Positions 8,010-57,552 of a stretch of DNA of 58,478 bases are shown piece by piece (position 1 is the first letter of the stretch; every line of letters starts with the position of its first letter). Made by a program: the position numbers and the translations under genes. This DNA comes from Catajapyx aquilonaris (Eukaryota). The stretch lies in contig KZ538617.1 of NCBI GenBank assembly GCA_000934665.2, positions 1-58,478 on the forward strand. The letters are read 5' to 3'. Below the pieces are notes generated by a model. It saw only the letters and a list, made by a program, of their open reading frames with translations, searched no databases and had not been told where the DNA came from.

Positions 8010-11000
8010 GTACGAGAAATTCGTAATAGCTACAATAATCTCATAATAATTGCATAATTCAAGGTTTTAACATATTTAAGGAGTATTAGCTGCTGGTAAA
8101 TTATCTTCAGCATTTATGGTTTTGCAGTCTGCTAACATAATGACTTCTTCTAACATTGAGGAAACTTGGACAAACTCTTAAAATCTTGGCTTTTCAAGGG
8201 TGTCATTGTCATTTGATTCTAATTATGAATTGTACCATATTACCTCTCATATTGCGGCATGCCGGTGTAGTCGAGGTTGACCAGTTTTTTAAAATGCTTG
8301 ATCTGGTGGCTATACCGGCATGCTGGTATAAGGCGAGGTTTTCACATAAGTTACATTATCCTTTCCGAACTCGACATTTGCCTCAAAAACAAAGTTTACG
8401 TAAAGGCTATCAAAATGGCACGTGTTATTCCATGTCAAATCATCACAGTTTGGAATTAAAATTGGCCTTGACCCCTTGGATTTTGATGAAACTTGGTGTA
8501 CCAAGTGTGCTTACATAGTAATGAATGAAAACCACAAGAAAGATTTTTTTTGCCTGCCATTCAAAAGTTATTAAATATTAAATGTTCCAATTTTGACTAA
8601 AAATTGCTGCGTCTTGAAATACTCGAAGTATTATTTTCTCAGGAACCAGATGAGATGGAAACCTGGGAAATGTCTCATATTAAAGGTCTTTCGATGGGCT
8701 TTACTTTGAAATGTAACATGGCAGAGATTAACATATTTATTAAAAATTTTAATCTCAATTAAATCTTTAAATTTAAATATTTCAAAAAACTGCATTTTTA
8801 AAACTTCGAAAAAGTTCTCAAAATTACTTTGTACTATCCTCTTGCACCTCCCCAAGTTTCATTTTGGGATTGCAATGGGATCAGGTGATACAAAGAGTGT
8901 ACATGTTTCACATGTTGTATGGGAAAATAGCTCTGGACTTATTATTATCATCAGTAGTTTTAAAAACCATGATAGTGCTTAATGAACATTTTATTCTTAA
9001 TTAGTATGAAGAATTTATGGTGTATACAGGGTGTAAATGAATTTGGGGGACAAACTTGTAGGGGTAATAGAGGGGACCAAGACAAACATATTTGACCTAG
9101 GAACCCGTGTCCGGAAACGCCATTTAGAGGGGGTTCATAGACAAGGAATGGGTGCGCTCAGACATGTCAGTCAGGCGGCGTTAGCGAGCGGACCGTTTAG
9201 TTTCTAGGTGGCGCGCGGATTGTACACAACTTTGCAATTTGCCATAACTTGGCAACAACAGAGTTGTTGTTTATTATCTGTGCGCTACCTAGCATGCTGA
9301 CTTTAGTTGTTAGGTGGCTCTGTTGTTGCCAGGTTATGGCAAATTGCGAAGTTGTGTACAATCAGCGCGCCACCTAGCAACTAAACGGTCCGCTCGCCAA
9401 CGCCGCCCGCCTGACGTGTCTGAGCACACCCGTTCCTTGTCTATGAACCCCCTCTAGATGGCATTCCTGACACGGGTTCGTAGGTCAAATATGTTTGCCT
9501 TAGTCCCCTCTATTACCCCTACAAGTTTGTCCCCCCGAATTCATTTACACCCTGTATGTCAGTTTCATTTTTAAAATACAAAGGTAAATTTATGGAACAA
9601 ATTTTACCTAAATTTTAAATGATGTATATTGCATAAAAGGAGACACCAGAATGGAGCTTATTAATTGCCCCAAAGTTCCCACCCACTCCTCTATTTAGCT
9701 TGAGAGACTATTGTATGTATGTGTGTGAGTGAGTGAGCTTATTAATTGCTGAAGTGAAAGTGACATTTCTCCACCCATCAGGACCTTCTCCTTCTTTTTC
9801 TTACCCTTCACCATCTGATGTGCTCTGGATTCCTTATGCTGATGTAATTTGCAAAGTGAATTCCCACACACCAACTGGTAGGGTTTACACTCTACCAGAA
9901 GGTGAAAGGGAAAAGATTGCAGGGGTCACTAGACGACACCTGGATTTGACAAAAGAGACATAACCTTGAGTCGCCACCCACAACCTCCAGCATATGGACA
10001 AATATTATGTTTTTTCACAGAAGCAGGTTGGTATAGGGGTTAAGGAGCCAGACTGCTAATCTGGAGGTCCTGGGTTCGATTCCCAGGGCCGGCGATCCTG
10101 ACCGTGGTTTTCTGTGGTTTTCCACGGTCCCTCCAAGATAATTCCGGGCTCGTTTCCGTATAATAGGCTACAGCCGCTTCCTTCCTTCCCTATCCTTGGC
10201 CCCATCCAATGGTGGTATTCCACACCCTAATGGAGCGCCGATTCTCCCAATGGGGTATAAAAAACAAACAAAATGTTTTTTCGGGGTAAGCTGATTAAAC
10301 ATGTTTTTTTTCTTGTACATTTAAGTCAATTATTTAGTTGCCATACACTAAGAATGAAAAATGTTTATTAAGCACTATCACGATTTTTAACACTACTGGC
10401 TCGATTTGGATCACATTTTGTTCTGAAAATCTCATTCTCAGAAGTTTTGACTGTAAACTGCAAAGCATTAAAAGAGCATCAGCACTTAAAGTCTCCCATG
10501 GAGCATTACACTCTTGTAATGCTCAATGGAGACTCAGTAGCTTGATGTTTGTGGTTGTCCGTGTAGTCCATCTGCTTGATATCAAGAAAATGCCATGTTT
10601 ACTATGAGTACATTTTTAGTTGTTTTCCTTTTTCTTGGAATTTGTGTACTGCCACCCATGAGGGGCATATCACATTCTCAGAAGTTCTGACTAGTCTATC
10701 TGCTTGACGTCAGAAAATGCCATGCACTTTTTTTCTTTTTTTTTCAATAGTTTGCTTGGAATTTATGTACCGCTGCCACGCAGGAGATTCACCATTGTGA
10801 TTTTTAGGCCCTTGTATACATAGTATCTACTGTGTAGTTTCACAATTGAGGTCATTTTGATTCCTCCCTTGGTAGTGTTTCACAGGGGTTAACTAATATC
10901 TGATTAGTAGATAAATGAATTGCTCATCCACTCTTATTCCCTCTGCCATGATGCCACTGGTTAATCATAGTGGCAGGATAAAAAGTCACAGTAGAATGAT

Positions 11001-18502: not shown

Positions 18503-18817
18503 TACATTCACTAGGTATTCATCACAGTGTATGTGGGCAAAATATTGTTGTGTGATGCAGCCAGATCCAGTGATTTTAACATTGGTAGCAAATTGCAACT
18601 TGGGACAACTCTCCTGTTAAATCACAATTTATGGACAGCCCCATGTGCATTTTAAAGAGAAGAGAATTATATTATACAAAACAATACCTGGGTGGAATAG
18701 AAGTCATGATCGGTGCCTTATTATATGCACACCTAAACTTGTTCAATTATTATGATCAGAAGTGGGTTTCCGTCTCCAGTGAAATCTGGAGTAAGATAAT
18801 ATGAAATCATACTGTTG

Positions 18818-19066
18818 TAATGGATACCCTGTGATAGGCCTTGGCCCCCTTAAGGGATCATCTTTTCGTGAACCGACTTTAATCGTTGCCTGCATGTGAT
18901 GGATTTTGATTGTGGGAGGAAATGGGAGAACACCGAGAAAACCCACGCAAACACAGAGAGAACCCATCGAAACTTGATCCACATAAGTATCCTCTGCGCG
19001 ACCTGGGGATCGAACTCGGGACCTTAGAGGGCTGGGGCGCTAACCACTCCGCCACCGTGTCGCCCT
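18818..19066 (-). mobile_element. tRNA-derived SINE with V-domain-like core (type A)
   Basis: Head GGGCGACACGGTGGCGGAGTGGTTAG...GAGTTCGATCCC on minus; core GCGTGGGTTTTCTCGG...TTTCCTCCCAC; 18-bp TSD TATGAAATCATACTGTTG. Confidence 0.88.
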
Positions 19067-19192
19067 TATGAAATCATACTGTTGCTGAGTGGTGATCAAA
19101 GTTCTGCAATAATAATGATGAATCATGATGTGTTAATTAATATTCTGTGTAACACAATATGCATGAAAACCGTAACAGTTACACCCTCCCAA

Positions 19193-19455: not shown

Positions 19456-19616
19456 ACACCCTCCCAACCAACTAGTGGTGCCTCAAACTCATGCTCAAAC
19501 TTATTTGAATGAGGCCCATTTTTGGTGAAGTAAAAGAGAGGGATGATTCTCTGGCACACTTATCCCCACTCTCCACTTTTCATTTGCTGGTAAAACGCCA
19601 ATGAATCATTTGAATT

Positions 19617-19898
19617 TTTTTGTTTTGTTACCCGTGCTCGAGCCATTGCGGCTCGTTTTGGGGGGAGGGGAAAGGTTCCCAAGGGGGGGCATCCTTGGTT
19701 TATAGTCACTCACGACTCTCTCAGATCACCAGACCTTTTCTCTGGCCCCGGGCAGCTAAGGGAGTGCAATGCTGCCCCGGCGTGTCGGGTGAAAAGCGGA
19801 AAAAGACCCGGCCAAGCAGAGGTGACGGGGACGGGATTTGAACCCTGGCCTCCCGCTTGGCTAGTCAGTGGCGTAACCACTAGACTACCACGCCTCCC
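19617..19898 (-). mobile_element. tRNA-derived SINE (type B) with LINE-like 3' tail
   Basis: Head GGGAGGCGTGGTAGTCTAGTGGTTA...GGTTCAAATCCC on minus; 14-bp TSD GAATCATTTGAATT; tail matches the LINE 3' end at 53226-53263. Confidence 0.9.
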
Positions 19899-20273
19899 GA
19901 ATCATTTGAATTAAGCACTCGACACAGGCATTTTAGCACTAAAAGATGCTCCTATTAGGGCAGGATGCTCCGTCCTTTAGTGGGACTGAAACGGATTGGC
20001 CTGCAATTATTGGCTGATTCTTAAAACAAACTATTGCTAAACACACATGTTAGTAGATTGCTTAAGTTTGCAGCTATGTACCACACCTGGGGAACCACTA
20101 GCCTAAAGGCTGTGAACAATGCAAACAATGCAGGCCTCAGTCTAGGACACGAAGGAATACTATACAATTGAATCAGTTGTTTCGAAAACCACATAAGTCC
20201 AGAGGACAGTACCATATTGATTTACAATTCCTTTTTTTGCCACAAATACGGGGCCAATACAGGTCGGAAGATA

Positions 20274-28416: not shown

Positions 28417-28642
28417 NNNNNNNNNNNNNNNNNNNNNNNNNNNNNNNNNNNNNNNNNNNNNNNNNNNNNNNNNNNNNNNNNNNNNNNNNNNNNNNNNNNN
28501 NNNNNNNNNNNNNNNNNNNNNNNNNNNNNNNNNNNNNNNNNNNNNNNNNNNNNNNNNNNNNNNNNNNNNNNNNNNNNNNNNNNNNNNNNNNNNNNNNNNN
28601 NNNNNNNNNNNNNNNNNNNNNNNNNNNNNNNNNNNNNNNNNN
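28417..28642. other. Assembly gap (others at 5329-5331 and 37463-37487)
   Basis: Runs of N, each beside a poly-C tract. Confidence 0.99.
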
Positions 28643-31445: not shown

Positions 31446-33307
31446 GTCAGTGTTGACCTTTGTACAATGTGTGGCAGCTTAACCTTCATACCTGAGCTTG
31501 ACGTGCTAATCACTCACCAGAGATTGTCACATAGTTGAAATCAGGGTTGCGTGCGGCATCCATTTGATTAATCATGTGGTGCAAGCCACGTGCCCATAAG
31601 CAGTTTATGAGCAGATGATCGCAGACTTAATTGTTATAATTGCGTATTGACCGTGATCTGCAGTGCACACAAAACGTGACGTTAATCAGGCGCGGCAGTT
31701 AATTATTCGAAACCAAGCTAATCGCCACTCGGACCGCATCGCTTCGGATCTAATTACACTAAACCTCACAAGTGTCCTCCATCAGTCGAATTACCTATGT
31801 GGGAAAACTATGCGTTGACATCTGCATATCTGTTTTGTTCAAACCTGGTATACTCTATCGATTTTCCTATATCATCACAGCAAACTAACCGAGATGGAAA
31901 ACGCATTTTGTCCACTCTCTCAACACTTGTTGAGAATGCGCAGCTCTCTTTCTCTTTACCATTTTCCATTCCTTCCACTGTTTGCTTTGGACCGCCTCTA
32001 TATATATACTGGACCCAAACACCCACTGCGAATCGCCATTTCAGGCAATAACCAAGAGTAGTCACCCTCACGACCCTGACCTTCAGAGAAAAAACCAATA
32101 GCAATTAATCAGACTGATAAATGTATGTACAAATGGTCCAAATAGCATTTAAAAGATTAAAGGCTAGAATGGGAACTTTTTTTTTAAAAAAAAAGGAACA
32201 AACCAGTCTGTTGGGAAAAGACTGGTATTTGAGAGTCTGTCCAGATGGGCACTTGGAATTAGTTCCTGTTTGGTCTCGCCCTTGTTTTCCCCATCTGCAC
32301 CGTTACTGACGTTGGGAGCTAGTGTTTATGCCATCATCGACAGAATGAAATGCGAGGCACGAAACAGGTGACATGCCCGTCAATGGAAAGCATCCTTGAT
32401 TAGCATTCGGCTCGGCCACGTGACAAGGGAATGATTGTCACGCGCTGCCATTTCGTTCGTGTTTGGTGCCATCGGATACATTGTACCGCTCTACGGGGCG
32501 TGACGCACTCTGAATTTTAGTGTCAACAAAACTATTTTTTACGGGCGTAAAAACCATGTATGTTAGGGTGAGAACTGCGGGGCCGTTAAAAATAGTACTT
32601 GCTGTGTAATGGAAGCCGCGTTTGGTAATTGCGCCTAAAACGGATTTTGTCAGTCTCATAAGCTAGAGTGTTGACATTATTATTGCCTGACGTTCATCAA
32701 AGTAATTATTATGCAGGTGAAATGCGAAAACTTGCCAACAAATGTGTGATGCAATATTAGAAGAGTTACGCCTGCGATATATGCAGCCATTCAGACAACA
32801 GGAGCTGTTGGGTTGCCTATGCAATTAGGATAAAGTGCTAAGGAGCATACGATTCGCATGCGCGATACAAATCGACCCTGTCAAAGCAAAGGCTCCGGTG
32901 GAAGACACGGAACAATATTTCACACAGGCGTCGTTCTGACGTGAGAAAATAAACGACCCAAGTTCTTTTATACCATGTGTATTCTTGCGAAGAGCACTGG
33001 ACAGAATAGGCTACAGTGGATAGGGGTGGAAAGGTTCCAGTCCATTTTTTGTGACTTCTCGACCTATGATGGAAGTCAATATTGACGAATTACACAATGA
33101 CTTCCTTCCAGCTGGTGCTGTGTATTTTTTTTATCAATGGTACTTTTAATATCTATTCTTTCTGTAATATTTGTTAGCTGTAGTTTGCCATATTGCAACT
33201 CGCAGGAGAAAGTACTAATACTTTTTGATAAAATATTTACGGTACATTTCCGGATTCATTACATCTAACTACAAAAATGTTAGCAAGTAATGTAGGTACT
33301 GTGATAT

Positions 33308-33654
33308 ATATTTTTTATTTAGTTTACCCCGTGATGACCCTTACGGGTGCTATAGGGGGTGGCATACCACCATCAGTTTTCTGTATATATTTTCACTTCA
33401 TTCTCCGGTGCAAGGAAACAGGGACAATGGGAAAGGATAGGGATTTTTGGGGAGGGAACATGGGTGCAAGGTGCAATGCCGTAGCTATGGGTCATGTGCT
33501 GTTCCCCAGGATGTTAGGTTGCCAGACACCTCCTTGGTGCAGGTCAGAGATCCTCCTGACGCAGGTGAAAGGAAAGTTCCCCAGGCGGGATCGAACCTGG
33601 GACCTTTCACTCAGCAAGCCGAGACGTTACCATCTCGGCCATCTACACCTCCCC
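33308..33654 (-). mobile_element. tRNA-derived SINE (type C)
   Basis: Head GGGGAGGTGTAGATGGCCGAGATGG...GGTTCGATCCC on minus; 16-bp TSD GTAGGTACT(G/A)TGATAT; A-rich tail. Confidence 0.87.
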
Positions 33655-40092: not shown

Positions 40093-43000
40093 GTAAGCAT
40101 TTCTTTGCTTTATGGTATTGTAACCTAGCATGGTTCACAATTGGGAGGAAAGTTTGTGTATAGCATGACAAATTAAATTTACCTTTCTTGTGCAAGTGAC
40201 TGAATAAGTGGCCTAGTTGAGCAATAACTGGGAGCAATACCTAACCTCTCCTAATGCCAACGTAACCGACATAATTCCCCAACCTCACATTTTCACTAAC
40301 AATTTTTATCTCAAAAGTCAACACCATTATCCTCAATGGCTCTTTTGATGGCCTTTTTGGTGCACTTTTTTTTTCGCAATTATGGATATAAAGGTAGCCT
40401 GTCCTTTTCAGTGTAGGGGAAGCATAAAGAAAATAAGGAAGTAAGGCATGTGGTTGATTAAAACATTAACGAATATAAAATCTGAAGGAGTATGGTCACA
40501 TAGTACTGTCATGGAAGGCCCAGAGATTTGTGTCACATATTTTTAATATTGTTAGAAAGACCTCACACATTCAAAACAAACATATCAGAAACATGGAGAG
40601 TTGGACAGTATGGTCCTCACAACCATTGTTCCCTTCTTGTGCATTTTATCATTGTCCGAGATTAATCATGTGAGCATTCTGTATGATTATATGATTACCC
40701 TCATTTATGTTGTTTTTGTTTCAGTAGTCCCATTGCTTTGGATTTTGGGCAGTTATTTAATTGTTACATGAGTTTTTATGCTTGCATTGCTAGTGTGAGT
40801 GGCAAAGAGACTAGAGTGGAAAAAATGATTTTTTATATTTTTTATGGATACCCCGTGATAGGCCCCTTGGGCCTCTTAGGGGATCATCTTTTGAATACCC
40901 GACTTTAATCATTTGCCTGTAATGTGATGGATTTTGATAGTGGGAGGAAAGGGAGAACCCCGAGAAAACCCACGCGAACACGGAGAGAACCCATCTAAAC
41001 TCTATCCACATAAGTATCCTCCGTCCGACCCGGGGATCGAACTCGGGACCTTAGAGGTGGAAGGCTGCGGAGCTAACCACTCGGCCACCGTGTCGCCCCG
41101 GAAAAAAGGATTTAGAATGCATGTTGCACATAAAAGAAAAATGTAGTTATGCTTGGTTCCAGAATTATTTCCAAAATAATATGGCTAACAATTAGCAACA
41201 TCTATCACATGTCGTACATATATTCTCTGTTCCAAGGCTTAAGGCAGAGACCACTCAGGGCGATATCTGTAAGCAGCCCACTCCAGATTACCTACTGCTA
41301 TAACTGAGGGCATTATTCGATGCTCTGAAAGACAGATTTGTCATATTCCTTGCATCAACAGAGGGCACCTTGGTAATTACCGCATGTAAAGCATGATAAC
41401 TCTTGAGGTTTTTGTGCCTCATGGAGCCTTCAGTTATTGTCGGGAGTGATCTGGAGTAGGATGCATTTAAATATGGCAGTGGGTGGTTACTGCCTTGGAA
41501 CATGGAGTACACTACCAACTAAAAACTTATAAAAATTTATATTATTTATTCATGTTGCCAATGTACTTTTCATACCTAGGTGCCTGTTCTCTCTCTCTCT
41601 CCTCCTCCTCTTCACCCCCCCCCCCGGATTTGCTTCTGACTGTACGTGTCCAAGAGTGAAGTAGGCTAGTGTTTGTCTTTTTGCCTATGAATATTTCACT
41701 ACCCCAAGCATGCAACTTTGCATTATTTACATCAATGTAGTCTTCATACCACCATCAAAACTTGGTATTATATGAATCTGGAGTGGAAACTTTAGCTTTC
41801 ATGTTAAAATAATTGGTCTGTATGTGAGCCGACAGGATGGAACAAAGAATTGGGAATTTTTGTGATTCTTATCTCCAACCAATTTAAGCAATCAAGTAAT
41901 CAACACCATTTGTTTGGCATGTAGTTGAATAAAGAGAGTTAGTCCTGATTGTTGCTTCTGTTTCAACTGGTTGGGGTAAATAATTCGTAGCTTATTATCC
42001 TTCCTCAGTTAAGGGTGTCTGTTTGATAAGTGTTCCATCCTGTTGACCCACACCAGGTGGAGGGTGGACATTGGGAAAGGGGGGCACACTGGTTTAGTGG
42101 TTCTGCCACTGGGGCCAGCCAAGCATGACTGCAGGTCTGGGTTACAAATCCTATCCCTGTCACCTTGCTTGTTGGGCTTTTTTCTGATTTTCTATTGACT
42201 TGTTTAGGAAGACTTAGTCCCTTTTTTGCCCAGGGTCAAGAGAAAAGGTTTGGTGATGTATTGCCCAAGGTTCCAGTTAGAAGGAAGAAATTGTGGATTG
42301 TTTAATCCAGCAACCAGTTGGAAAATAATCGATTGGAAAGAACAATCAAGGCCATATTCACTTCTTGTGATAGTTGCTTCTGTTTAAGCTTGTTGCTGGA
42401 GTAAACAACCCATAACTTTTTAAATCTGTCCCTCTTCAACTGGAGACTTGTGCAGTGCACTTACCCTGCATATATTTGTACATGTTTGACACTTTTAATG
42501 GACAAATGGTATTGTATGTGAACATCATACAAGAATAATTGCCACTTGGACTTTGACTGTGGGGCTCCTTGCAGTGCTATGCAATGTGGACATAGCCTAT
42601 ATTTAAACTTGTTTACCACAGCCTTGGAAAACCGGATAAGCAATTTGGAAGCTTCATGAAAAGGGCACACTGATTAGCTGATTACATCAATTTTAAATGT
42701 ACCCTATAAATAACTTGTGACAATTTTTGCCTCTCAGGTTGACTGTAGTGGAAAGCATACCAGAGGGCCTAGTGTACAAAAACAGCACCACATCACACTT
42801 ATCCACTTTCCAAGGATGGATGAATTTGCTCAACTTGGCTACTTCCACTATCGAGATTGGCTCCTTTTATTGGACTCTGCAACCTGGCGATGTCATGCCA
42901 AAGCCAGACCCATCTTCCGCTGAGGTGAGTACAATGAAATGAAAAGGGGGGAGAAGAGATAGAGGGAATTTAATATAGCTTAAATGTTGTTGTTTTATTC

Positions 43001-45882
43001 TAGGGTGAGCAGATTTTCCAGGGACTTATGGAAGCTGGTTTATCCAGGAAGATACAAATCAAAATTGCTCAAACACTGCCATCTGATTCCAAGCCTAACA
43101 TGGACACTAAATTACTGGAAGAAAAGGGAGCTGCACAAGTACGTGTATAATGTTTTAAAATGTGGACTGAAGCAATGAGGTCACTTTTTAAACTTAGGTG
43201 AGGAGCTTGGATTTTGAAAAACTGCTTGGAAATGGGGTGTTGCACACAAAAATGTGGATAGTGGACAGGACACATGCCTACATTGGAAGTGCAAACTTTG
43301 ATTGGCGATCCCTCACTCAGGTACTGGTGTGTATGATTTTGCTTGGGATTGATAATTTGAGTAACATGTGTTGCTTATTCCAGGTTAAGGAATTAGGAGT
43401 CGTTGTTTACAACTGCAGCTGCTTTGTCAAAGATCTGGCAAAAATCTTTGATGTAAGTAACACCAGCTAATTGAAAGTTTTGCCTAAGGAATCAATTATT
43501 ATGAGAGTGATTTTAATTGAAGTTACTGTTGTGTCAATCTAAAATTCAACAGCCAAGGGGGATGTAGTAGTGGCCCAAATATCTGCCATGTGTAAACAGA
43601 ATGAGGGAATGAGTCTAGTTGGGCAGCAATGGTTTACCTACATGCTGCAATTTAACATGTTTTCTTATAGTTGGGAGCATTTTGTGTTACCAGTTTGTTT
43701 TGTACATACCACATATTTTCTGCGCATCAGAAATTTTTTTCAGGCATGTGGATCTATGTTAGTTGAGCCTAGGAAAGTTGGGGCTACCTGTAAATGTAAC
43801 TGAAATTTGATAATGAAGACCTTTACCAAATAATGCTGCAACACATTTTTAATTGCTCTTGGTGGATGTAAGGCCAATGTTTGACTTTCCTTGTTAATTT
43901 ATATTATCTGCTTTCAGGTGTACTGGGATTTGGGAAAAACTGATGCAAAGATTCCTCCCAAGTGGCCTGAAGCCTATCAGACAATCTACAATTCACACAA
44001 CCCCATGGACATGGCTTTCAATGGCACTAACTTGAGCTCATATATAAGTGTGAGTTATTAATCATACGAAAAGTCAGATACCAAGAGGTGAAATGTAACA
44101 ATTACAATATTTTCAGAGCTCACCTCCTGAGTTTTGCCCCAAAGGACGCAACACAGATCTGGATGCTATTTTGAGTGTAATTGACAATGCCAACAAATTT
44201 GTCTACATCAGTGTGATGGATTATATGCCAGTGACTCTTTACACTCCAACAAGAATGTTCTGGCCTGTGATAGATGACAGGCTGAGGGCAGCTGCAATTG
44301 AGAGAAGGGTGACAGTCCGCCTTTTAATTAGCAAGTGGAAACATACCATCAAGGCCATGCCCAACTTCCTTCAGTCACTTGCTGCCTTGAATCAAGTCTA
44401 TCGTAATGTGAACATTGAAGTTGTAAGTACACAGGGGTGTCTAGTAATATATGTCCCAATACTTTGGGAAACTATTTTAGGTTTCACTGAGGAGTACCGA
44501 GTTGGTTACTGATGGGATTCACAAGGATAAAAAGGACTCTGGACAGTCCGTGATGGGGTTCTTAACCTGTTGAGGGCGATGTCCGTCATAATTATGATGG
44601 TCTGCGGATATTTGAATTTGGCGCTCTAAAATGTGCACAGAGAATGTAACTTTGCGGTTCCAAAGTCAGTTCAATATACTCCTGCCATCTCTTGGATGGT
44701 GACTAAACTACCATGAGACTCCCACAATTCACTGGGCGGGAGGCAAGCTGAGTTGAACATGCCAAGGCCATGGGGCTGCTACATCATCTTTCATGTAAAA
44801 AAACACCCTGAGTACAGGGTGTCCGTAAAGTCTGGACCCTTGGGAGTTTATCATGGTACAGTGTTGTGGTAATATTATGCAACCATAATAACAGTGTATA
44901 GTGATTATGGTAACTTGTTAGACCTATAGACGTTATGTGAGCCAAACGATTTAAAAAAATTATTTCTGGAACACCCTGTAGACGACTTTTTTCCGGCATT
45001 TTACATTTAAAAGGACCACCACGAATTAAAATGATTAATTTTGGTGTGAAGTTGTTATTCATTAATATCACTCCTACATCAAATTTTGGACAAAAGAGAG
45101 AAAAAAGGCCCAAAAACCTGCCAAAAACTCCGCCGTCAACAGGTTAATAGTTTGGGGTTAAGGAACAAAATTAATGTGTAACTAATCCTACAAACTTCTT
45201 CAAATAATATGGGGTTGCTAGATGATGATTTTATATTCAGGCATCAGGTGTCATCACCACCTCCTCATTGAAATAATTAGCTTTTATCAGGAAGTGTAGT
45301 GCAATATATCCTGTCCAGGGGTGGGGCCTACATCCAATGATGATTGTATGTGTCTGCAACTGGTCACATCATGTGATTGCCCATGGCCAAAGAAGGGGAG
45401 AGGGGGAAAAGTAATGGATTGTTTTTATGTAGCACAACCAGTTTAAAGAAGAAACAATTATAATAATCTACTTTCATAATGACTGGGTCAATTGTTCACA
45501 ATATGTTTTTCTTTCATTTCAGAAATTATTTGTGGTTCCAGCCACCACAGCCCAGGCTCGAATTCCATTTGCACGAGTGAACCACAACAAGTACATGGTG
45601 ACTGACAATGTTGCATATATAGGTATGAGTTCATGTCAGTGCCAAAAATTGAACCATTGCAACCTTTTTTTCTTATTGTAAACAGGAACTTCCAACTGGT
45701 CTGGTGACTACTTCATCAACACTGCAGGAGTAGGACTTGTCATGAATCAGACCCACACCAACATTGCAATGGGGAGAATTCTCAACATGTCCACCTCCAT
45801 TCGACAGCAGATACAGGATATATTTGAGAGGGATTGGGCTTCGGAGCATGCCAGGCCACTGAAAGAGTTTTTCCCTTCATGA
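39809..45882 (+). CDS. PLD3: PLD3-family type II membrane protein (5'-3' exonuclease / phospholipase D3-like); about 613 aa if the 31137 exon is used
   Basis: join(39809-40092,42738-42924,43004-43138,43198-43320,43384-43452,43918-44049,44117-44422,45523-45622,45686-45882); GT-AG and in phase; [87 protein letters not shown]. Confidence 0.93.
40832..41099 (-). mobile_element. SINE type A copy (V-domain-like)
   Basis: Close homologue of 18818-19066; TSD GGAAAAAA(T/G)GATTT. Confidence 0.88.
42079..42270 (+). mobile_element. Degraded SINE type B copy
   Basis: GGGGGCACACTGGTTTAGTGGTT...CAAATCC...GCCCAGGGTCAAGAGAAAAGGTTTGGTGAT resembles the type-B head and body. Confidence 0.55.
42738..42924 (+). 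CDS. PLD3: PLD3 exon
   Basis: [11 protein letters not shown]...[13 protein letters not shown] boundaries. Confidence 0.92.
43004..43138 (+). CDS. PLD3: PLD3 exon
   Basis: [12 protein letters not shown]...KGAAQ; AG/GT boundaries, phase 0. Confidence 0.9.
43198..43320 (+). CDS. PLD3: PLD3 exon, first HKD motif
   Basis: [11 protein letters not shown]...[14 protein letters not shown]. Confidence 0.93.
43384..43452 (+). CDS. PLD3: PLD3 exon
   Basis: [23 protein letters not shown]. Confidence 0.92.
43918..44049 (+). CDS. PLD3: PLD3 exon
   Basis: VYWDLG...IPPKWP...SYIS. Confidence 0.9.
44117..44422 (+). CDS. PLD3: PLD3 exon
   Basis: [18 protein letters not shown]...ISVMDY...[13 protein letters not shown]...VRLLISKW. 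Confidence 0.93.
44566..45143. mobile_element. piggyBac-like element with a nested Tc1-type MITE (44815-44978)
   Basis: TTAA|CCTGTTGAGGGCG ... CGCCGTCAACAGG|TTAA; inner TA|CAGGGTGT ... ACACCCTG|TA. Confidence 0.75.
45523..45622 (+). CDS. PLD3: PLD3 exon, second HKD motif
   Basis: KLFVVP...[21 protein letters not shown]. Confidence 0.93.
45686..45882 (+). CDS. PLD3: PLD3 terminal exon
   Basis: [15 protein letters not shown]...[13 protein letters not shown] at 45880-45882. Confidence 0.92.
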
Positions 45883-46707
45883 GACTTTTAATATTTAAGG
45901 TTGTGGTTTGGCCAGAATTATTTGTCGATTATTGCTGAATCCCAACAAGGGTTTTGTCAGCAATATTTACTGGGAAGTTCAGGTAAACATATCATGTTTG
46001 TCATGACTGTGGCAACGATTTTGAGTCCATATCTATGCCATACTTGAAGTGGGCCAGTTTACATCACAAACAAGTGCTTTATCCAGTTGGAGCATTTTGA
46101 ATGTGTTAACATGGGGCAATTTTTAATAGTGTATTTATCTTATACAATACTTTGGGAAGTTTGAATAGGTTATTATGAAATACTCTAATTCTGTGCGTGA
46201 ATTTTGAATGATGGCATTTTGTGCATTGCAGCCATTCCATTGAGGCTGGAAAAATTCTGCAAGATGGGTTCATTATGAGACATTTGCAAAATTACCAGTT
46301 TTAGACTACATTTGTGCTGTTACAGGGATTTTTTAAAACCTTAATTGCTCATTTTTACGTCTAACTTATAACTGTATGAAGTTGAACTTCCATAGCTTGA
46401 AATTCCTCCAAACAAGTTTTTAGTTTTGGAAGTTCAAGGTAGAACAATTAATTTTCTACGACATTGTCCAGGCCCAGATTTTCTTTAATGGAAGAATCAG
46501 TATTGACCAAGGTTACCATACATCCACTACATGCAGCCCCCTCTACATTTATGAGTAATGCAGCAAATATTATTAGTCACTTAGAGGGGCAACAGTGTGA
46601 TATGATACATGCTTACAAAGTGGTTTAATCGTTATTGTTTGAACAGTGTGTAATGATCGAGTCTTATCATATTCCTTGATATGAATTGAGTGTGTGGCCA
46701 TTTTTAA

Positions 46708-47177
46708 CCCTTAACCACGTAGGTGGGTGAAACACCTTTAACTACGTCGGTGGAGCCTGAGAGGCTCCAACGGTATATTTCAATTTCTGCTTATCAACTA
46801 AATTGTTATATTGGACTTTTCACATACAGAAAGTGGAGTTCAGATCATTAGGCTTCCGAAAACGTAAAAATCACACGCTTAGTCAGCATATTCCGACAGG
46901 GAAAAATTCTTAATTAAAAGGTTACATCATGCTTGAGCCGCTCAGTCTTCACCTGCACAGGTAGAGCCAGTATAGAGTCCAGGAGGGACCTGTTCCTCGT
47001 TACGAATTTTTTTAAACCAAACAATAGGGACTTAAAAAAAATTTCTTTCCTTTTCATGCTTAGGAAGATTTTTCTGACAAAGTCACGGAAGGACAGGGGA
47101 AAATAAAATTCAATGAAAAGTTATATGCGTTTAAATAGTGGTTGGAGCCTCTCAGGCTCCACCTACGTAGTTAAGGG
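46708..47177. mobile_element. piggyBac-like MITE
   Basis: TTAA|CCCTTAACCACGTAGGTGG ... CCACCTACGTAGTTAAGGG|TTAA; subterminal GGAGCCTGAGAGGCTCC palindromes. Confidence 0.83.
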
Positions 47178-47494
47178 TTAAAGAACTACCTGAGGGCTAA
47201 GCTATATCACAATAATTCTCCTGTACTCTCCAAGTGCAGTACCTGAAATCTTTCGCAGTACTATATAAGGCGTACTGCTTATATGTACCATGCAAAAATA
47301 GGGCATACCAAACACATAGTTCATATTAGTTAGTGATTCTTTAGCATGAATCTGCTTATTATGGAGAAGTTACTTTCAAGCAATTTGATAGGTTATCAAG
47401 ATATGAATTACAATTAGTATCCTGCATTGAATAATTCACCCCCCTAAATTGCAGTGAATTATAGTGGGAATGACTCACGTGAGGGGGGGGGAGG

Positions 47495-47498
<4 letters not shown>

Positions 47499-47536
<38 letters not shown>
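47499..47536. repeat. (GA)n microsatellite
   Basis: About 19 GA units. Confidence 0.95.
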
Positions 47537-47541
<5 letters not shown>

Positions 47542-49511
47542 GGGTTGCCTGTTTGCCTGATGAGGGATCTGGAAAAAGAGGCCGCCAGTGACATGTTATT
47601 TTATACCCTCTTGTGGGCTTTACAAACCAACAGGCACCAATGTCAATGTTGGTTGAAAAATTCTTAGATGGCTTTGCTTCAACTAAAACCAGGGCCTTCA
47701 AAGTGGAGTCCAGAGTGAGTTTGTGCTCTCTCTCTATTTTCCTTCCATTTCCCGCACTGTCAGTGACATTCAGATCAGCCTACACCCTAGCATGGCATTT
47801 GAACTTCGTCATTCCTTCCATGACAATAATAATATGGCAGCAGAATTTTTCTTTGCTGACTTGTCCATAATGAAAAAAAATATTCTTCTTATGTACTGAT
47901 AATCAACAGCTTTGTGCAAAAAATTGCTAACTAAAACAGGCTTGGAACACCCTGTATGTGCAGAATGAAACAATGTTTTTTCTTACAAGGAAGTGTCTAG
48001 TCACGGCTGAAACTGGCATACTAGGTAACATGGAGGCCAAACAATATATGTCATGCTTGGTAGCCACTTTTGAATTCCGATCATAGTAAGGTGGAGCACT
48101 TGTGCACTCTGCCAGTGCAGCACTGGAACAGAGATGGGATAGCTGATTGACAGCTATGGCTGAGCTCCCATGTCAAACTCATTCCAATGTTGTGGACTTC
48201 CCAAAATTTAGGCATGCATTGTGATAAGAACAAGCACCATATTTTTTCAACTACAACTTGAAAATTATTCCGATATGCAATTTAAGCATTCTGCAATCAT
48301 ATTTTGGCTTCTAATGTTCTGAACATGCCAATTTTCTGCCAATATGTCTTCTGGTTTCTTCCTTGCTTATTACCATATAGATATCTGATATGATAGTAAA
48401 TGTGCTTCATTTGACATAGACAATATATTTGCATGGTGCTGTGTTTGTATGTGCATTTATGGTAAATATGACCTGTAAGTAATTTGAGATTACTGTTACA
48501 ATTGATTCCTTTTTGAATTCTCAGAGGATAATGATTGAATTGTTTCTGACACTTTTTTTGTGCAATGCCTATTTATCATCATAAATCTTGTCATGGATTG
48601 TATTTATTGTTTTATTTTAGAATGCTGACTGAATAGTTTGCTACATTGCTGTTTTCTGGTCCATTTGCTTTATCGTTGAGATAATTTTTGACATATAATT
48701 TTTTGCCGCCTCAAAGGCTAGTTGGCAAAAGATTTTAAAAGCCGGTGTTAGATCTCTGCGCATATGGACCACAAAGACACTAAACATTAAATGGTCAAGT
48801 CACTCTTCTAAAAAAAACAAGTTTGGAGGTTTTTGTAGCTGGTAGTTTCATGTCCAAGAAATTCTTTTACCTGTCAATTGACTTTAACAATGCAAATATA
48901 GCAAGTGTCTGGCATACATTTGGTCCAGTATAAGGGTTTGTAACATTTCTTGCATCCTGCAGTGCTTCCCTGAAATGACTATCGTCCTCACTGCACAAGT
49001 TTGTGATTTTAGGTGTAATTTTACCAAGGTCAGATATCATGTATTTAACAAGTCAAAATATTTTCAAGTATTTTCAGTAATAATACTGAAATATATCTAA
49101 ATATTTAATGTTAAAAAGTGCTACAATCATATTTATTGCAGATTCATCCATGTTACATTTACCATTCTCAATAATGTTATCAGCTTAAAGCAGGTGGAAT
49201 GCAGATTTGTGCACATGTTAGAAATATTGCAGGTGCTAGTAAATTTCATTCATCGATTTTAGTGTAGCATGCAGACAAATCAGTGCCATGTTAATTCATT
49301 GTGGTCAAGTTGAATGATTCATTATCCTTTAATGGCACATGCCACTCTGCAGGTGAAAGAAAAAACTATTACGTTTCTCTACTTTTTCAGTAGTGGCAAG
49401 AATGAGGGGAAACATTTTGTTGCCTTGTTCAATTTGTTCTAGAGTCATCAGTATAATAATATTGGCTTTCCTGATACCACATTTTAAGCTGATACATTGG
49501 GATTTGCTTAA

Positions 49512-50011
49512 CCCTCAGACGGTGACGTGCGAAATGTTCCCTCTCCGGTGACGTGGGCCCTTTTTGTGACCAAGCCATATTTTTTGTTATATCTGGCGAA
49601 ATATAGCACATTCGGGCTTCACTTTTGAGACAATCATAGTGTGATTCCTTCTACGACGAATAGCGTTTAGTTTACATTTTTTGAGAAAATAGTGCGATCA
49701 GAAAAATATCGGAAAGAAAATCAGTCGGGGCCAACTCCCCGGGGTAGGGGGATTCCACCCCTTGGCGGCCTGGGATGCCACCGGGAGCCGCCAGACCGGA
49801 TCTTGGTTAGGCCCCATCTACGCATTGCCGCCTAATTTATTTTTTCCTGGTCGTGCTATTTGCTCAAAAAATTTAAACTAAACTTCATTCATCACAGAAA
49901 TAGTCAAACGAAAATGTTCTCAAAGATGAATCTCGAATGTCCTAAATTTGCCAAGTTATAGCAAAAAAAGGGTCGTTGGACACAAAAAGTGCCCACGTCA
50001 CCGTCCGAGGG
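49512..50011. mobile_element. piggyBac-like MITE with long imperfect arms
   Basis: TTAA|CCCTCAGACGGTGACGTG ... CACGTCACCGTCCGAGGG|TTAA. Confidence 0.83.
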
Positions 50012-52861: not shown

Positions 52862-53189
52862 GGGGAGGCGGAGTGGTGCTGCGGTAACGTATGCGCCCGG
52901 GTTCGATCCCAACCCGGGGACACCCCCTTCATCTCGTGCAGAGTTCAGGGTCACCTCTGGCTTCGTCTCGGGTGGTATTTCCACAGACTAAACCACCCGG
53001 GGGAGTTCACTAAAAATGGCCACGGATAAGACCACTGGACCTTGCACATCCCCTCCTGTCATCCTGCCCGTGGGCCCGGGCGTTACGTATAAAGGCTCCA
53101 ACGTACTGTACTTGACATGACATAATAAATAAAGGTCCGTGCTGCATACCTCAGATGAGGTCAAGCACTACCCCGGATTATTTTTTTAA
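52862..53189 (+). mobile_element. tRNA-derived SINE (type E)
   Basis: GGGGAGGCGGAGTGGTGCTGCGG...GGGTTCGATCCC head; 16-bp TSD AAGTTAATTATGAGCA at 52846-52861 and 56034-56049, pushed apart by the LINE. Confidence 0.8.
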
Positions 53190-53204
53190 AAATTAAAAAA
53201 GTTA

Positions 53205-56025
53205 TTGATTTTATTTTTTATTTAATTTACCCCGTGTTCGAGCCTTTGGCTCGTTTTGGGGGACACAGCCACATATGTATTACATACAAATTCGGTATGT
53301 GTGCATTAATGCTCATTTATATTTACAATTTTGATCACGTTTTGAAAAAAGGAGAACAATTTATGTACATCTGGTTTTTGGCTATTTGTGAAGAGCATCA
53401 AGATCTGGTCAGGTAGAAATTTAGGTATATCAAACAGGTATTTCCGTCTTGGAGGAATGAACAAGGGGCCTTGCAGGGGCATTCGTAAATCATATGAAAA
53501 ATTGAACAGTTTACCTGCCAATTTCACCATACACACTGTTCCTCTGAGTCTATTTTAAGTTGCTCGTTTTGTTTTAATTTTATATAGCAGGAGTTATTTC
53601 GCAAATTCGCTAACAACCGAATGTGGGATATTGGCAGGTCTATGTTAAAATAGCTTTCTCTCTGGAATTCGTCTTTTACGTCTTCGTAGCTTATATATCT
53701 ACTAGTTTTTTGTAGTCTGTTTATTAAATCATTGTTAAGCGCCAGTTCAATTGTTTCAAGGATCTTTGGGAGCTCATCTGCCGACTTTTTCCAATTTTCT
53801 GCTAGAGGTTGGAAGGTTTTTGAACAACTTGCCAGCCAATTTAACCTGTTTTTTGGACTTAATTCTTTTTGTGTAGTGTATAAGTATGCTGCTTTAAGAA
53901 GTTCATTTTTTGAGTTTGTTTCTATATTGAGTATAAATTTTAGTGTTGCTCTGGCGACATTTAAAGTAAGTGGAATTACTCCTGTTTCTAAATAGACAAA
54001 GTATGCTGCTGTCGTCCGTGGTAGGTTCAAAAACTTCTTCAGGAAGTAAGTTTGGACCTGGAGTATCTCTGCTAAGTGCTGGGGTCCCCATATTGGGCAT
54101 GCGTACAATAAGACTGGCACAATGTGGGCATTGAACAGTTTCAATGCCACCGTGAGGTCTCTAAGTTTCAATTTAATGAAGACCGGCCAGAGTGAATTTA
54201 TTGCGGCTCTAGCCTTTCTTTTGAAAATTTCCGCTGCCTCGTTCTTTTTGCCGGAGCACTTAAAAGGGACCCCTAGATATGTGTATATGATTCGTTTTTA
54301 ATTTTTTGATCTTGCCAAAAGAAAATTTTCCAGGGTTTTCTTCCACCCTTTTGGAAGCAAACAAGTTTGGTTTTGTCTAAATTTATTCGTAGCTCGTTCT
54401 CTCTAAAATATTCCACTAACATATTTATATTTCTCTGCATATAACATGGGTGTTCTGTAATCAGTATTATATCATCCACGTAAGCCAATATCAATATTTC
54501 CTCTTGTCCTGGTCCAAAATTTACACCTTTAGCACCTGCGGCTGCTAACTCTGCATGGAGATCTGCTAAATATAAATTGAATGGGAATGGGCTTAAAGGT
54601 TCACCCTGTGGTAGTCCTGTTGTTATCTTAATTAGATCGGTATTGTGTTCCGAAACTATACCCATTTTAGTATACATGTCTTTCAATAATATAATATATT
54701 ATCTTATCACTCATACCGATCAGTCTAAGTTTTATGAATAATTTGTCATGTCTAACCGAATCAAATGCTTTCGACAGATCGATAAAGAGAGCATACAGCT
54801 TTCCTTTTGGTCTAGATAAATATTTCTGTATTAGAATGTAAAAGGTGAACAAATGGTCCATGCAACCTCTCCCTTTTCGGAAAGCCGCCTGCCAATCTGG
54901 GATTTTATTATGTGTGTTTGCCCATCTTTGCAGCCTGTCAGTTAATATGGAAGTAAATAATTTAAATGAGTTGTTGAATATTGCAATGGGGCGATAATTT
55001 TTTGGCAAGTCCCTGTCTCCAGTTTTATGTATGGGTATGACTCTAGCCTGCCCCCAGTTATTTGGTACTTTTTGTGTTTGTATGCAGTTATCGAAAATCT
55101 TGAAAAACCTTTCCATTAAACTTATTTTACAGTCTTTTATTAGTGTGTTAGATATCAAGTCCAGTCCCGGAGCAGTTTTAGTTTTAAGTTTCGTTATTGC
55201 ATTTTCCAATTCGATTCTCGTGAGTGGGCCACCATCCAATGTCCGATCTTGTTGAAAGATGTCCATATCCCTCAATTCTGCGTTAGGTGAAAGCTGGGCC
55301 ACCTCTGAGTAGTTCGATTTCAAGTATTCCCACCATGTTGAAGCATCTAATATTTGACGGGGATTTTGTTTTTTGGCTCTCTTTATGAGTGCCCAAAACT
55401 CTCCGGGCTTTGTTGTGTTATTAGTTTTTGCCTCAGTGTATGTGAAAAATATCTCTTTTTTTTGCAAGGCTTAGGTTTTTATAACTCGCTCTCCTATTTA
55501 TGTAGACTTCCCTATTACTTGCAGTATCAGCTTCCCCCCAAATATGTAGCAGGTTCTTTACCTCGCCTTTTACTTGTTGTAGGTCGTTGTCAAACCATGG
55601 GGCTACTCTAATTCGGTTATTGGGAGAGGGCGTTTGTGACCTTGTAACTATCAATCCAAATTCAGTTAGTTTTTTTTAAATCAAGGTGGTTAAAGTTTCC
55701 ATTGGGTTCACCAAATTGCAATCATAGTCCCAATCTAACTCCTGTTGTTCCATTAGGCTGTCGGATAAGAAGCCAAAACCGTCCATTGGGGTAATCAACA
55801 TACTACGTGAGATTTGAGAGGTTTTCTCCTTTTATGTGAATTCAATCACTGGTCTCATCCTTCACCTGTCTTGGGGTATTCCAGCAACTTACCAAATCTG
55901 ATTCTAAAACATTTTAATTATAGTTTCCAATTCGTGAATTAAAATCGCCCATTATGATTGTGGGGGTTCCCTTTTCAGAAGCACTTTCTATTAGTTTAAC
56001 TACAGGCTCTATTGAATTGCTATCG
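53205..56025 (-). mobile_element. 5'-truncated, frameshifted non-LTR retrotransposon (APE + RT; CR1/L2-group-like)
   Basis: APE remnant PTIIMGDFNSRIG near 55930-55965; RT motifs APGLDLI, NYRPIA, FIDLSKAFDSV, GLPQGEPLSP, YVDD; A-rich tail near 53205-53228; TSD AAATTAAAAA(A)GTTA at 53190-53204 and 56026-56039. Confidence 0.92.
53524..55467 (-). pseudogene. Broken LINE ORF2 (reverse transcriptase and C-terminal region)
   Basis: Consecutive ORF pieces 54667-55467, 54273-54686 and 53524-54171, separated by frameshifts or stops. Confidence 0.88.
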
Positions 56026-56712
56026 AAATTAAAAAGTTAATTATGAGCATAATTTCATTCCTAAATATCAACAAGTTCTAGAATTCTGTGCAGATGTTTG
56101 TGCTTCTGAGTAGTTTCCCTGCAGCTTATACTTGTTAAAGCCTGTTGCACCCTGTTTGGAAATGAATAGGTAAATAGGAAAAAAAAAATCTGACATACTC
56201 CCTTCCCGTCAGGCTCTCACACAGTGTCACATGCAAATCTTTTGTCCATGTAGGTTTTATTCAAAACAGATTAAAATCACTGGAGACCAGGTACGAGTAT
56301 AGACTGTAAGCCTCCATCCTGTCACGTATCACCATGTACCACATCATCATGTAATTTCCTTTTTTTTAAATGGACTGCTTTTATGAACAAAGGCCATTCT
56401 TATCTTCTGATTGACATATGCTTGAGCCTTGAGGTGTCCTCCAACTGATAATTCTATTCTTATTGGATTCAAAATTGTCAGAATATACATGTATTCATCG
56501 CGAGCAAAAAAGATGGGAGGCGATTGCTCACAGGTTGATCGAAAGTTCCGTGGAATGCCTCTCGGCTGCAATAAAAATAATAATAAACATGCAATCAGTT
56601 GTCCTCATCTTTTAGCTCGCAATACTGTATGATATAATAGCAGACTAAACATATCGGCACGAACAAAACGAGTAATAATTTCTATGTTCTGCCTGTCGAA
56701 TGAACCTAGTTG

Positions 56713-57552
56713 TTACATATCTTCGACTTGTGGAATAATTGACGCATAAGCAGTTTCAGGATCGTCATAAGCATCCACGTGATCTCCCGATTGATATTTT
56801 CCTTCTTCAAGAATTTGGATCAATTTTTGTACAGAGGCAGTTGGAGACAAAAGGTACTTTGCCCTCTTTATGTGCTCGATTACTTCAGGAGTACCTCGGG
56901 ATGACATACCATCCCACATCAGTTTGGTAGAAACCACTCCAGGAGCATAGTTAAGCACATTCAATTTGGGATTCTCTAAAGCTAAGGATTTGAATATCAT
57001 ATTTCGAGCTGCTTTGGCAGCGCAATACAAAGATGCATTAGGAAATGCCCTGACAGCAGCCAAAGAAGATACTTGAATGATAGTGTGCCTCTTGACAGTT
57101 TCCTCTTTAAACACCTTCAAAAACTCAGCGTTGAGACATATTGCAGACGTCACGTTCATGTTGAAGTAATTCTCTATGTCCGTAGGTTGGTCAAGTTTGG
57201 CCACCACCTTATTGAGTAGGGATGCTGCGTTGTGGATTATGATGGCGTGGGCAAAATCTGAAGCTTTCTTATCCAGTTTTTTAAGACAGGCATTGATAGA
57301 CTGGATAAACTTGTCGCTGTCATATTTGCTGAGATCAACAGATTCCACAATGACCTTGACCTCCGGAGCTACTTTGGTCACTTCAGACCTGGTTTCATTA
57401 AGACCCTGGACATCTCGAGCCATGAGAAGAAGAGCAGACCCCTTGCCCATCAGCTTTGCAAATTCGACGGCCACAGCCCGTCCGATTCCTCTGCTGGCAC
57501 CAGTTATCAAGCAGAAGGAGCTGCCTTCCCAGAATTTGGACTGACTAGGCAT
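56713..57552 (-). CDS. SPR: Sepiapterin reductase-like short-chain dehydrogenase, 279 aa
   Basis: ITGASRGIG, HNAAS, SSLAA, YCAAK, VLNYAPG and C-terminal YQSGDHVD; ATG at 57552 (the ORF track start at 57588 lies beyond a TTTACAG acceptor at about 57574). Confidence 0.88.
   Translation of the reverse strand: MPSQSKFWEGSSFCLITGASRGIGRAVAVEFAKLMGKGSALLLMARDVQGLNETRSEVTKVAPEVKVIVESVDLSKYDSDKFIQSINACLKKLDKKASDFAHAIIIHNAASLLNKVVAKLDQPTDIENYFNMNVTSAICLNAEFLKVFKEETVKRHTIIQVSSLAAVRAFPNASLYCAAKAARNMIFKSLALENPKLNVLNYAPGVVSTKLMWDGMSSRGTPEVIEHIKRAKYLLSPTASVQKLIQILEEGKYQSGDHVDAYDDPETAYASIIPQVEDM

What the first reader, a model, noticed from the sequence alone, without database searches (positions are those of the whole stretch)
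53226..53263. One 3'-terminal RNA structure shared by the LINE and several unrelated SINE families
Seen, in sense orientation just before each A-rich tail. LINE: CCCC-AAAA-[CGAGCC AAA GGCTCG]-AACAC-GGGGTA. SINE A (40846-40885): CCCC-TAAG-[AGGCCC AAG GGGCCT]-ATCAC-GGGGTA. SINE B (19627-19666): CCCC-AAAA-[CGAGCC GCAAT GGCTCG]-AGCAC-GGGTA. SINE C (33323-33360): CCCC-TATAGC-[ACCC GTAA GGGT]-CATCAC-GGGGTA. SINE D (10224-10258, weaker): CCC-TAAT-[GGAG..CTCC]-CAAT-GGGGTA. The outer CCCC/GGGG stem and an internal loop are kept, while the inner stem changes sequence but still pairs. Established: stringent LINEs of the L2/CR1 group recognise a 3' stem-loop that partner SINEs borrow. Inference: this is a covariation-supported recognition module for this LINE clade's RT, used by SINEs with different heads. 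Whether it has been described is unknown to me.
Basis: partly seen in the sequence, partly recalled or inferred. Interest (0 to 1): 0.8.

Follow-up and report, generated by a model that had tools for sequence, protein, structure and literature searches.

The report
LINE tail hairpin shared by SINEs
A dead copy of a LINE retrotransposon and four different families of small tRNA-derived SINE elements in this animal-like genome end in the same short two-tier RNA hairpin. This is the familiar way SINEs borrow a LINE's copying machinery, so it is a clear but ordinary example.

Summary
One 5'-truncated LINE (53206-56025, minus strand, flanked by target-site duplications, TSDs) and five SINE copies from four families all end the same way. 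The ending is CCCC, a 4-nt loop, a variable hairpin, ANCAC, GGGG-UA, then an A-rich tail. All five SINEs have tRNA-like heads and TSDs.

A covariance model built from these six ends scores them 28.8-49.9 bits. Nothing else in the window scores above 13.4 bits.

LINE/SINE B and SINE A have 6-7 bp inner stems that differ by three double, pair-keeping changes. The 4-bp inner stems of SINE C and SINE D are no better than chance (32 of 113 anchor-matched control sequences reach 4 bp).

Public contigs of the same organism show these SINEs are high-copy. They also show that the commonest letter restores the C-G outer pair at two positions where the window copies are imperfect (10224 and 18853).

The module was not found at the 3' ends of related LINEs from metagenomes (0 of 80 loci). 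The LINE's clade is unresolved.

The best reading is a stringent-type 3' recognition hairpin borrowed by partner SINEs. That mechanism is well published, including compensatory changes, so this is a new member of a known kind.

The parts
53206..56025 (-). LINE insertion. It is 5'-truncated inside the endonuclease domain and is a dead copy. It is flanked by a 15/16-nt target-site duplication (TAACTTTTT(T)AATTT) at 56026-56040 and 53190-53205.
   Evidence: RVT_1 matches in two frames, E 3.8e-17 and 6.9e-17. An endonuclease remnant carries GDFNSR and three in-frame stops. The TSD was read.
53228..53261 (-). LINE 3' module: CCCC / AAAA / CGAGCC-AAA-GGCTCG / AACAC / GGGG-UA.
   Evidence: MFE fold -16.3 kcal/mol, z -2.10. 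R1 49.2 bits. The inner stem of 6 bp was reached by 0 of 20000 shuffles.
53206..53227 (-). A-rich 3' tail of the LINE. It appears partly templated: TAAAYTAAATAAAAAATA is shared with SINE C.
   Evidence: The local alignment of LINE against SINE C covers the last 32 nt, tail included.
40829..41099 (-). SINE A copy 1, with a tRNA-like head. Module at 40849-40882 (inner stem AGGCCC/GGGCCU). TSD TC(C/A)TTTTTTCC.
   Evidence: Fold -19.1 kcal/mol, z -2.60. R1 49.9 bits.
18817..19067 (-). SINE A copy 2, decayed and without an A tail. Module at 18825-18857. TSD AACAGTATGATTTCAT.
   Evidence: The A1/A2 alignment scores 329. R1 39.5 bits. Commonest letters in public contigs differ at 18853 and 18848.
19615..19898 (-). 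SINE B. Module at 19629-19663, with the same inner stem as the LINE, a longer loop and only three G in the outer stem. TSD TTCAAATGATTC.
   Evidence: The last 48 nt align to the LINE end, score 51. R1 37.0 bits.
33304..33654 (-). SINE C. Module at 33325-33358 (inner stem ACCC/GGGU plus a G-C pair across a bulged C). TSD CA(T/C)AGTACCTAC.
   Evidence: Fold z -0.86. R1 42.9 bits.
10017..10272 (+). SINE D. tRNA-like head at 10023-10094. Weak module at 10224-10257 (inner GGAG/CUCC, 3' loop CAAU). TSD ATGTTTTTTC.
   Evidence: R1 28.8 bits. At 10224, A is C in 10931 of 11669 summed depth in run X1, which restores CCCC.

Best explanation
The 34-nt module is the 3'-terminal recognition hairpin of an endonuclease-type (APE) non-LTR retrotransposon lineage of this genome.

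In the RNA, a 4-bp C/G clamp and an inner GC-rich hairpin are separated by an asymmetric internal loop: 4 nt on the 5' side and ANCAC on the 3' side. UA and an A-rich tail follow directly.

Inferred mechanism: the LINE's ORF2 protein binds this structure, the A-rich end pairs with a nicked T-rich target, and reverse transcription starts there.

At least four tRNA-derived SINE families have acquired the module by tail exchange and are copied in trans.

Because the inner stems and loops differ, the families are probably served by sister LINE subfamilies. The LINE copy in this window matches only SINE B in the inner stem.

Shown here: shared terminal position, TSDs, sequence homology of the tails, pairing with some compensatory change, and high copy number of the SINEs. 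Inferred: protein binding, trans-mobilisation, and which LINE serves which SINE.
For: - Terminal position inside TSD-bounded insertions holds for 6 of 6 copies.
- Heads and bodies are unrelated between families. The best inter-family local scores are 17-32 outside the tails, against 329 for A1/A2 and 231 for B/B'.
- Tail homology to the LINE end: SINE B 48 nt (score 51), SINE C 32 nt (score 42), SINE A 45-49 nt (score 21).
- LINE and SINE A inner stems differ at 3 of 6 pairs, each on both sides, and none is broken.
- On the model-fitted alignment, 87.7% of 57 cells pair and 4 of 10 pairs have double changes. The covariation score is 0.393 against 0.167 +/- 0.050, reached by 0 of 500 shuffles. 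Slid controls give 0.027-0.180.
- Stems of 6-7 bp are rare in controls: 4 of 113 reach 6 bp.
- A-rich tails of at least 60% A follow 2 of 113 control matches. The letters after GGGGTA in all 6 window copies were read directly: five are A-rich, and A2 has only TCCATTAC.
- SINE bins have summed contig depth of 44,000-174,000 (runs X1-X3) against about 25-36 in unique sequence. The commonest letters restore outer-stem C-G pairs at 10224 and 18853.
- SINE B and B' share head and body but carry different tails, which shows tail exchange.
- Published mechanism: a stringent LINE ORF2 binds the cognate 3' stem-loop (abstract of PMC4176376).
Against: - Only one LINE copy is in the window and it is dead, so the family consensus 3' end was not seen.
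- The inner stems of SINE C and SINE D (4 bp) are at chance level, p 0.21 and 0.26, with 32 of 113 controls reaching 4 bp.
- SINE D lacks the CAC of the 3' loop.
- Single-sequence fold z-scores are weak for A2, C and D: -0.55, -0.86 and -1.29.
- The alignment used for pair counts was fitted to the model, and the model was trained on the same six sequences.
- There was no significant hit at the 3' ends of RT relatives.
- The read laying tables are truncated (555 other-letter rows not shown), so most module positions were not checked against the family majority.
- No binding or mobilisation data exist.
Confidence: 0.7

Rival explanations
1. The tails are homologous only because all derive from one LINE lineage. 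The A-rich end alone is what the RT needs (relaxed, L1-like recognition), and the hairpin is a passenger or serves RNA stability or 3'-end formation rather than RT binding.
For: All copies but A2 end A-rich and their TSDs are T-rich or AT-rich. SINE C and SINE D stems are at chance level. No protein-binding data exist.
Against: Three double, pair-keeping changes separate LINE and SINE A, with no broken pair. The outer stem and ANCAC loop are conserved across families with unrelated bodies. The family majority restores outer pairs. A2 inserted with almost no A tail.
Confidence: 0.15
2. The module at the LINE's end is not the LINE's own. A 5'-truncated SINE B-like fragment happens to lie next to a LINE fragment.
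For: Only one LINE copy was seen, and homology to SINE B covers just the last 48 nt.
Against: A 15/16-nt TSD brackets the whole stretch from the endonuclease remnant to the A-rich tail as a single insertion. The tail after GGGGUA matches SINE C, not SINE B.
Confidence: 0.05
3. Chance resemblance of short C/G-rich motifs near A-rich stretches.
For: A loose structural scan finds 10 anchors against 3.8 +/- 2.2 in 200 simulated sequences, and the largest simulated count is also 10.
Against: CACGGGGTA occurs 3 times against 0.18 expected. 6 of 6 strong model hits are at TSD-defined element ends. Tail homology extends beyond the motif.
Confidence: 0.02

Closest known systems
CR1-14_CGi LINE with BivaV-SINE2 and BivaCORE-SINE1 in bivalves (Nishihara et al. 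2016, PMC4824008; passages read)
   Same: SINEs of different superfamilies share a LINE's 3' tail. Conserved stem-loops and compensatory mutations are used as the argument for a common partner RT.
   Different: The sequences are in figures that are not held, so identity of the motif could not be checked. The motif strings were absent from the 2 supplementary files searched, and file 1 was not searched. Here the tail is A-rich and the LINE clade is unresolved.
Zebrafish ZfL2-1/ZfL2-2 stringent-type LINEs (Hayashi et al. 2014, PMC4176376; abstract read). Eel UnaL2/UnaSINE1 is recalled, not read.
   Same: A 3' stem-loop directly upstream of the terminal repeats or tail is the element that ORF2 recognises. 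Recognition is bipartite: the stem is recognised generally and the loop specifically.
   Different: Those are L2-clade elements ending in short tandem repeats. Here there is a two-tier hairpin with a conserved internal loop and an A-rich tail, and no experiment.
Modular 'jigsaw' SINEs of gastropods and bivalves (Matetovici et al. 2016, PMC4758252; passages read)
   Same: Heads, bodies and tails are recombined between SINE families. The same tail occurs on different heads and different tails on the same head, as with SINE B and B' here.
   Different: The stem-loop discussed there lies in the V-domain of the body, not the tail.
Proposed 3' stem-loop shared by human L1 and Alu (Grechishnikova and Poptsova 2016, PMC5135761; abstract read)
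   Same: A hairpin with a bulge just before an A-rich tail, in both LINE and SINE.
   Different: There is no sequence homology between L1 and Alu tails. Here the tails are clearly homologous.

Membership tests
LINE/SINE partnership through a shared 3' tail (stringent type) | The non-autonomous partner is a Pol III-type SINE (tRNA-like head with A and B boxes) flanked by target-site duplications. | tested here: met
   7 tRNA-like heads found. Rfam tRNA at 33.5 bits and ARAGORN for SINE D. TSDs of 10-16 bp for the 5 module-bearing copies.
LINE/SINE partnership through a shared 3' tail (stringent type) | Sequence homology between the SINE tail and the extreme 3' end of an autonomous LINE. | tested here: met
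   SINE B 48 nt (score 51), SINE C 32 nt (score 42), SINE A about 45 nt (score 21). SINE D was recognised only by the model, at 28.8 bits.
LINE/SINE partnership through a shared 3' tail (stringent type) | A conserved stem-loop in the tail, supported by compensatory changes. | tested here: inconclusive
   Strong for LINE/SINE B against SINE A (3 double changes). Overall score 0.393, reached by 0 of 500 shuffles. SINE C and SINE D stems are at chance level. There are only 6 sequences, and the alignment was fitted to the model.
LINE/SINE partnership through a shared 3' tail (stringent type) | The LINE ORF2 protein binds the tail RNA and mobilises the SINE. | not testable with these tools
   Needs a binding or retrotransposition assay.
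CR1/L2 group of LINEs | RT phylogeny places the element in the clade. | not tested
   No reference LINE library is at hand. Relatives carry Exo_endo_phos_2 plus RVT_1, a C-terminal CX2CX7HX4C pattern, and no RNase H among the precomputed Pfam domains.
CR1/L2 group of LINEs | The 3' end consists of short tandem repeats rather than an A-rich tail (this feature is recalled). | tested here: not met
   The LINE and the SINEs end A-rich. Several RT relatives do end in 4-5-nt repeats (L007, L020, L023, L025, L039).

The most novel reading that the evidence does not exclude
An undescribed type of LINE 3' recognition element: a C4/G4 clamp, a free-to-vary inner hairpin and a sequence-conserved ANCAC internal loop, placed directly before a partly templated A-rich tail. 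It would belong to an A-tailed LINE lineage that combines stringent structure recognition with L1-like priming on T-rich nicks. It would have been captured independently by at least four high-copy SINE families through tail exchange at the C-run.
Probability: 0.25. Interest if true: 0.45.

Novelty: new member of a known kind. Interest (0 to 1): 0.25.

Why it matters
The finding gives a compact, testable RNA element for asking how an A-tailed invertebrate-type LINE chooses its template. It also gives a clean local example of SINE tail exchange: the same head and body carry two different tails. It does not change the established picture of LINE/SINE partnership. Its practical value is for repeat annotation of this genome and as a starting alignment for a covariance model.

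Tried and rejected
- The whole genome is not held, so no genome-wide model search or family consensus was possible.
- Earlier findings of this scan: nothing by place, by sequence or by words.
- Model R1 on 80 metagenome loci with RT relatives (277,320 bases, default filters) gave 0 hits at E up to 10.
- With filters off on the 21 loci that show a 3' end (86,495 bases), the best hit was 12.6 bits, E 1.7.
- My loose scan of the 80 loci gave 7 hits. Only L006 3899-3927 lies at a LINE 3' end. It folds alike but with z -0.07, so it is a lead only.
- The pattern scan of prokaryote genome contigs returned 113 chance matches and no eukaryote-like copy. I used them as a null set.
- Taxon: the protein atlas and a protein search with the neighbouring SDR gene gave only about 40% identity to lancelet and sea-urchin proteins. 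The organism is unresolved, and the run names are coded.
- No RNA holder was listed among the sequencing runs.
- Literature: the string CACGGGGTA together with 'retrotranspos' matched 0 papers. Motif strings gave 0 occurrences in 2 supplementary files of PMC4824008, with file 1 not searched. Kojima 2018 (PMC5786205) has no passage on tail stem-loops beyond the introduction.
- LINE clade assignment was abandoned for lack of reference sequences.

Full report
**What is there**

The window is eukaryotic. No genome is held for it. It carries host genes (UPF0767, DDHD and PLD-like exons, and an SDR/sepiapterin-reductase-like ORF) among many retroposons.

At the stated coordinates the minus strand reads CCCC-AAAA-CGAGCC-AAA-GGCTCG-AACAC-GGGG-TA, followed by an A-rich stretch. 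Upstream on the same strand lie reverse-transcriptase pieces in two frames (RVT_1, E 3.8e-17 and 6.9e-17). Further upstream is an endonuclease remnant with GDFNSR and three in-frame stops.

The stretch 53206-56025 is bracketed by a 15/16-nt target-site duplication (TSD), TAACTTTTT(T)AATTT. It is therefore one insertion of a 5'-truncated, now dead LINE, and the module is that LINE's own 3' terminus.

**The SINEs**

A B-box-like pattern finds 7 tRNA-like heads. Five of these copies end in the module:

| Copy | Coordinates | Strand |
|---|---|---|
| SINE A1 | 40829-41099 | - |
| SINE B | 19615-19898 | - |
| SINE C | 33304-33654 | - |
| SINE D | 10017-10272 | + |

The head of SINE D is called a tRNA by Rfam at 33.5 bits and by ARAGORN. 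Each copy has a 10-16-nt TSD.

Between families, heads and bodies do not align beyond generic tRNA similarity. Local scores are 17-32, against 329 for A1/A2. 'Unrelated families' is therefore fair.

Two further copies carry a different tail: B' (head near 20829) and E (52858 to about 53185). B and B' share head and body (score 231) up to the C-run where the module starts. This is direct evidence of tail exchange.

**Is it more than chance?**

- CACGGGGTA occurs 3 times against 0.18 expected.
- All six ends fold into the two-tier hairpin as their minimum-energy structure, though single z-scores are only -0.55 to -2.60.
- A covariance model built from the six ends scores them 28.8-49.9 bits. Nothing else in 58 kb exceeds 13.4 bits.
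- A loose structural scan gives 10 anchors against 3.8 +/- 2.2 in 200 simulations, whose largest count is also 10. Six of the 10 anchors are the element ends.

**Covariation**

LINE and SINE B share the inner stem CGAGCC/GGCUCG. SINE A has AGGCCC/GGGCCU. Three of six pairs are changed on both sides and none is broken.

On the model-fitted alignment:

- 87.7% of 57 cells pair.
- 4 of 10 pairs show double changes.
- The covariation score is 0.393 against 0.167 +/- 0.050, reached by 0 of 500 shuffles.
- Slid controls give 0.027-0.180.

The caveats are six sequences, an alignment fitted to the structure, and a model trained on the same sequences.

The 4-bp stems of SINE C and SINE D are not remarkable. 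Their shuffle p-values are 0.21 and 0.26. Among 113 prokaryotic sequences that match the outer anchors by chance, 32 have at least 4 bp, 19 at least 5 bp and 4 at least 6 bp. The covariation claim therefore rests on two strong independent stems plus two weak ones.

The conserved unpaired letters are an A-rich 4-nt 5' loop and ANCAC on the 3' side. SINE D has CAAU instead.

**Family level**

Contigs of four public runs of the same organism were laid on 10000-20950 at 80% likeness or better.

| Region | Summed depth |
|---|---|
| Unique sequence | about 25-36 |
| SINE D bin | 143,000-174,000 |
| SINE A2 bin | 89,000-116,000 |
| SINE B bin | 44,000-50,000 |

The figures are for runs X1-X3. The tool warns that these are not copy numbers.

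At two positions where window copies spoil the outer stem, the majority letter restores C-G:

- 10224 A>C, 10931 of 11669 summed depth in X1.
- 18853 plus-strand A>G, 11625 of 11985.

In addition, 18848 changes A2 to the A1 letter. The table was truncated (555 rows not shown) and the LINE end was not in the laid stretch. This is a partial test, and it passed.

**Reach beyond this genome**

80 metagenome loci encode RT relatives at 24-45% identity. Model R1 finds nothing in them. It also finds nothing with filters off in the 21 loci that show a 3' end; the best hit is 12.6 bits, E 1.7.

Their tails are mixed:

- 4-5-nt tandem repeats in L007, L020, L023, L025 and L039.
- Poly-A in L034 and L045.
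- An A-rich tail after a hairpin in L003 and L016.

L006 has a look-alike two-tier hairpin at its 3' end, but its z-score is -0.07.

Relatives carry Exo_endo_phos_2 plus RVT_1 and a C-terminal CCHC-like pattern. RNase H is not among their precomputed domains. The clade is unresolved.

**Mechanism and comparison**

The best reading is the established stringent-type model: ORF2 protein binds the cognate 3' stem-loop (abstract of PMC4176376) and SINEs borrow the tail.

The same argument is already published for bivalves. There, different SINE superfamilies share a CR1 tail with conserved stem-loops and compensatory mutations (passages of PMC4824008). Modular exchange of SINE parts is also published (passages of PMC4758252).

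Two features differ here:

- The tail is A-rich and partly templated. LINE and SINE C share TAAAYTAAATAAAAAATA; SINE B and SINE D share an ACAAA-type tail.
- The internal loop is conserved.

I found no paper holding the motif. However, figure sequences and one supplementary file could not be searched.

**Verdict**

The covariation is weaker than stated, the clade-wide claim is unsupported, and the novelty is low.

Noticed in passing
window 20618-20651 (-) and 53065-53098 (+): A second tail type (GCCCGTGGRCCCGGGCGTT...) is shared by SINE B' and SINE E. B' has the same head and body as SINE B, and SINE E has a different head. The E tail also folds as a two-tier hairpin, z -2.50. This implies a second LINE partner and tail swapping at the C-run.
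   Followed up: partly
window 53170-53230 and 56026-56045: The LINE inserted into the AT-rich stretch just after the 3' end of SINE E, which lies on the opposite strand. The two elements therefore sit tail to tail.
   Followed up: partly
window 53206-53227, 33304-33324, 19615-19628, 10258-10272: The 'A-rich tails' are not random. LINE and SINE C share TAAAYTAAATAAAAAATA, which contains AATAAA. SINE B and SINE D share an (A)ACAAA(A)CAAA-type tail. This pattern cuts across the sharing of inner stems.
   Followed up: no
window 18830 and 18853: In decayed copy A2 the innermost outer pair is U-A instead of C-G, changed on both sides. The family majority at 18853 is C. This could be coincidence or a subfamily.
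   Followed up: no
window 56713-57549 (-): An uninterrupted ORF encodes a sepiapterin-reductase-like SDR. Its best named hits are at about 40% identity, and the alignment covers 91% of the query within one ORF. It lies about 690 nt from the LINE's 5' end and may be a single-exon gene or a retrocopy.
   Followed up: no
window 12196-13293 and 14026-15123: Other high-depth repeats of unknown type. Summed contig depth reaches about 38,000 against about 30 for unique sequence.
   Followed up: no
window 40940-41010 and 18900-18975: The body of SINE A (GGGTTCTCTCCGTG...TTCCTCCCAC) reminds me of the V-domain of V-SINEs. This is recalled, not tested here.
   Followed up: no
L006 3899-3927 (+): A metagenome LINE with 32% RT identity has a look-alike two-tier hairpin 150 nt after its ORF2 stop. 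The hairpin is followed by AAUAAAC and two CATTGT repeats.
   Followed up: partly
window 5329-5331, 28417-28642, 37463-37487: Runs of N, which are assembly gaps.
   Followed up: no
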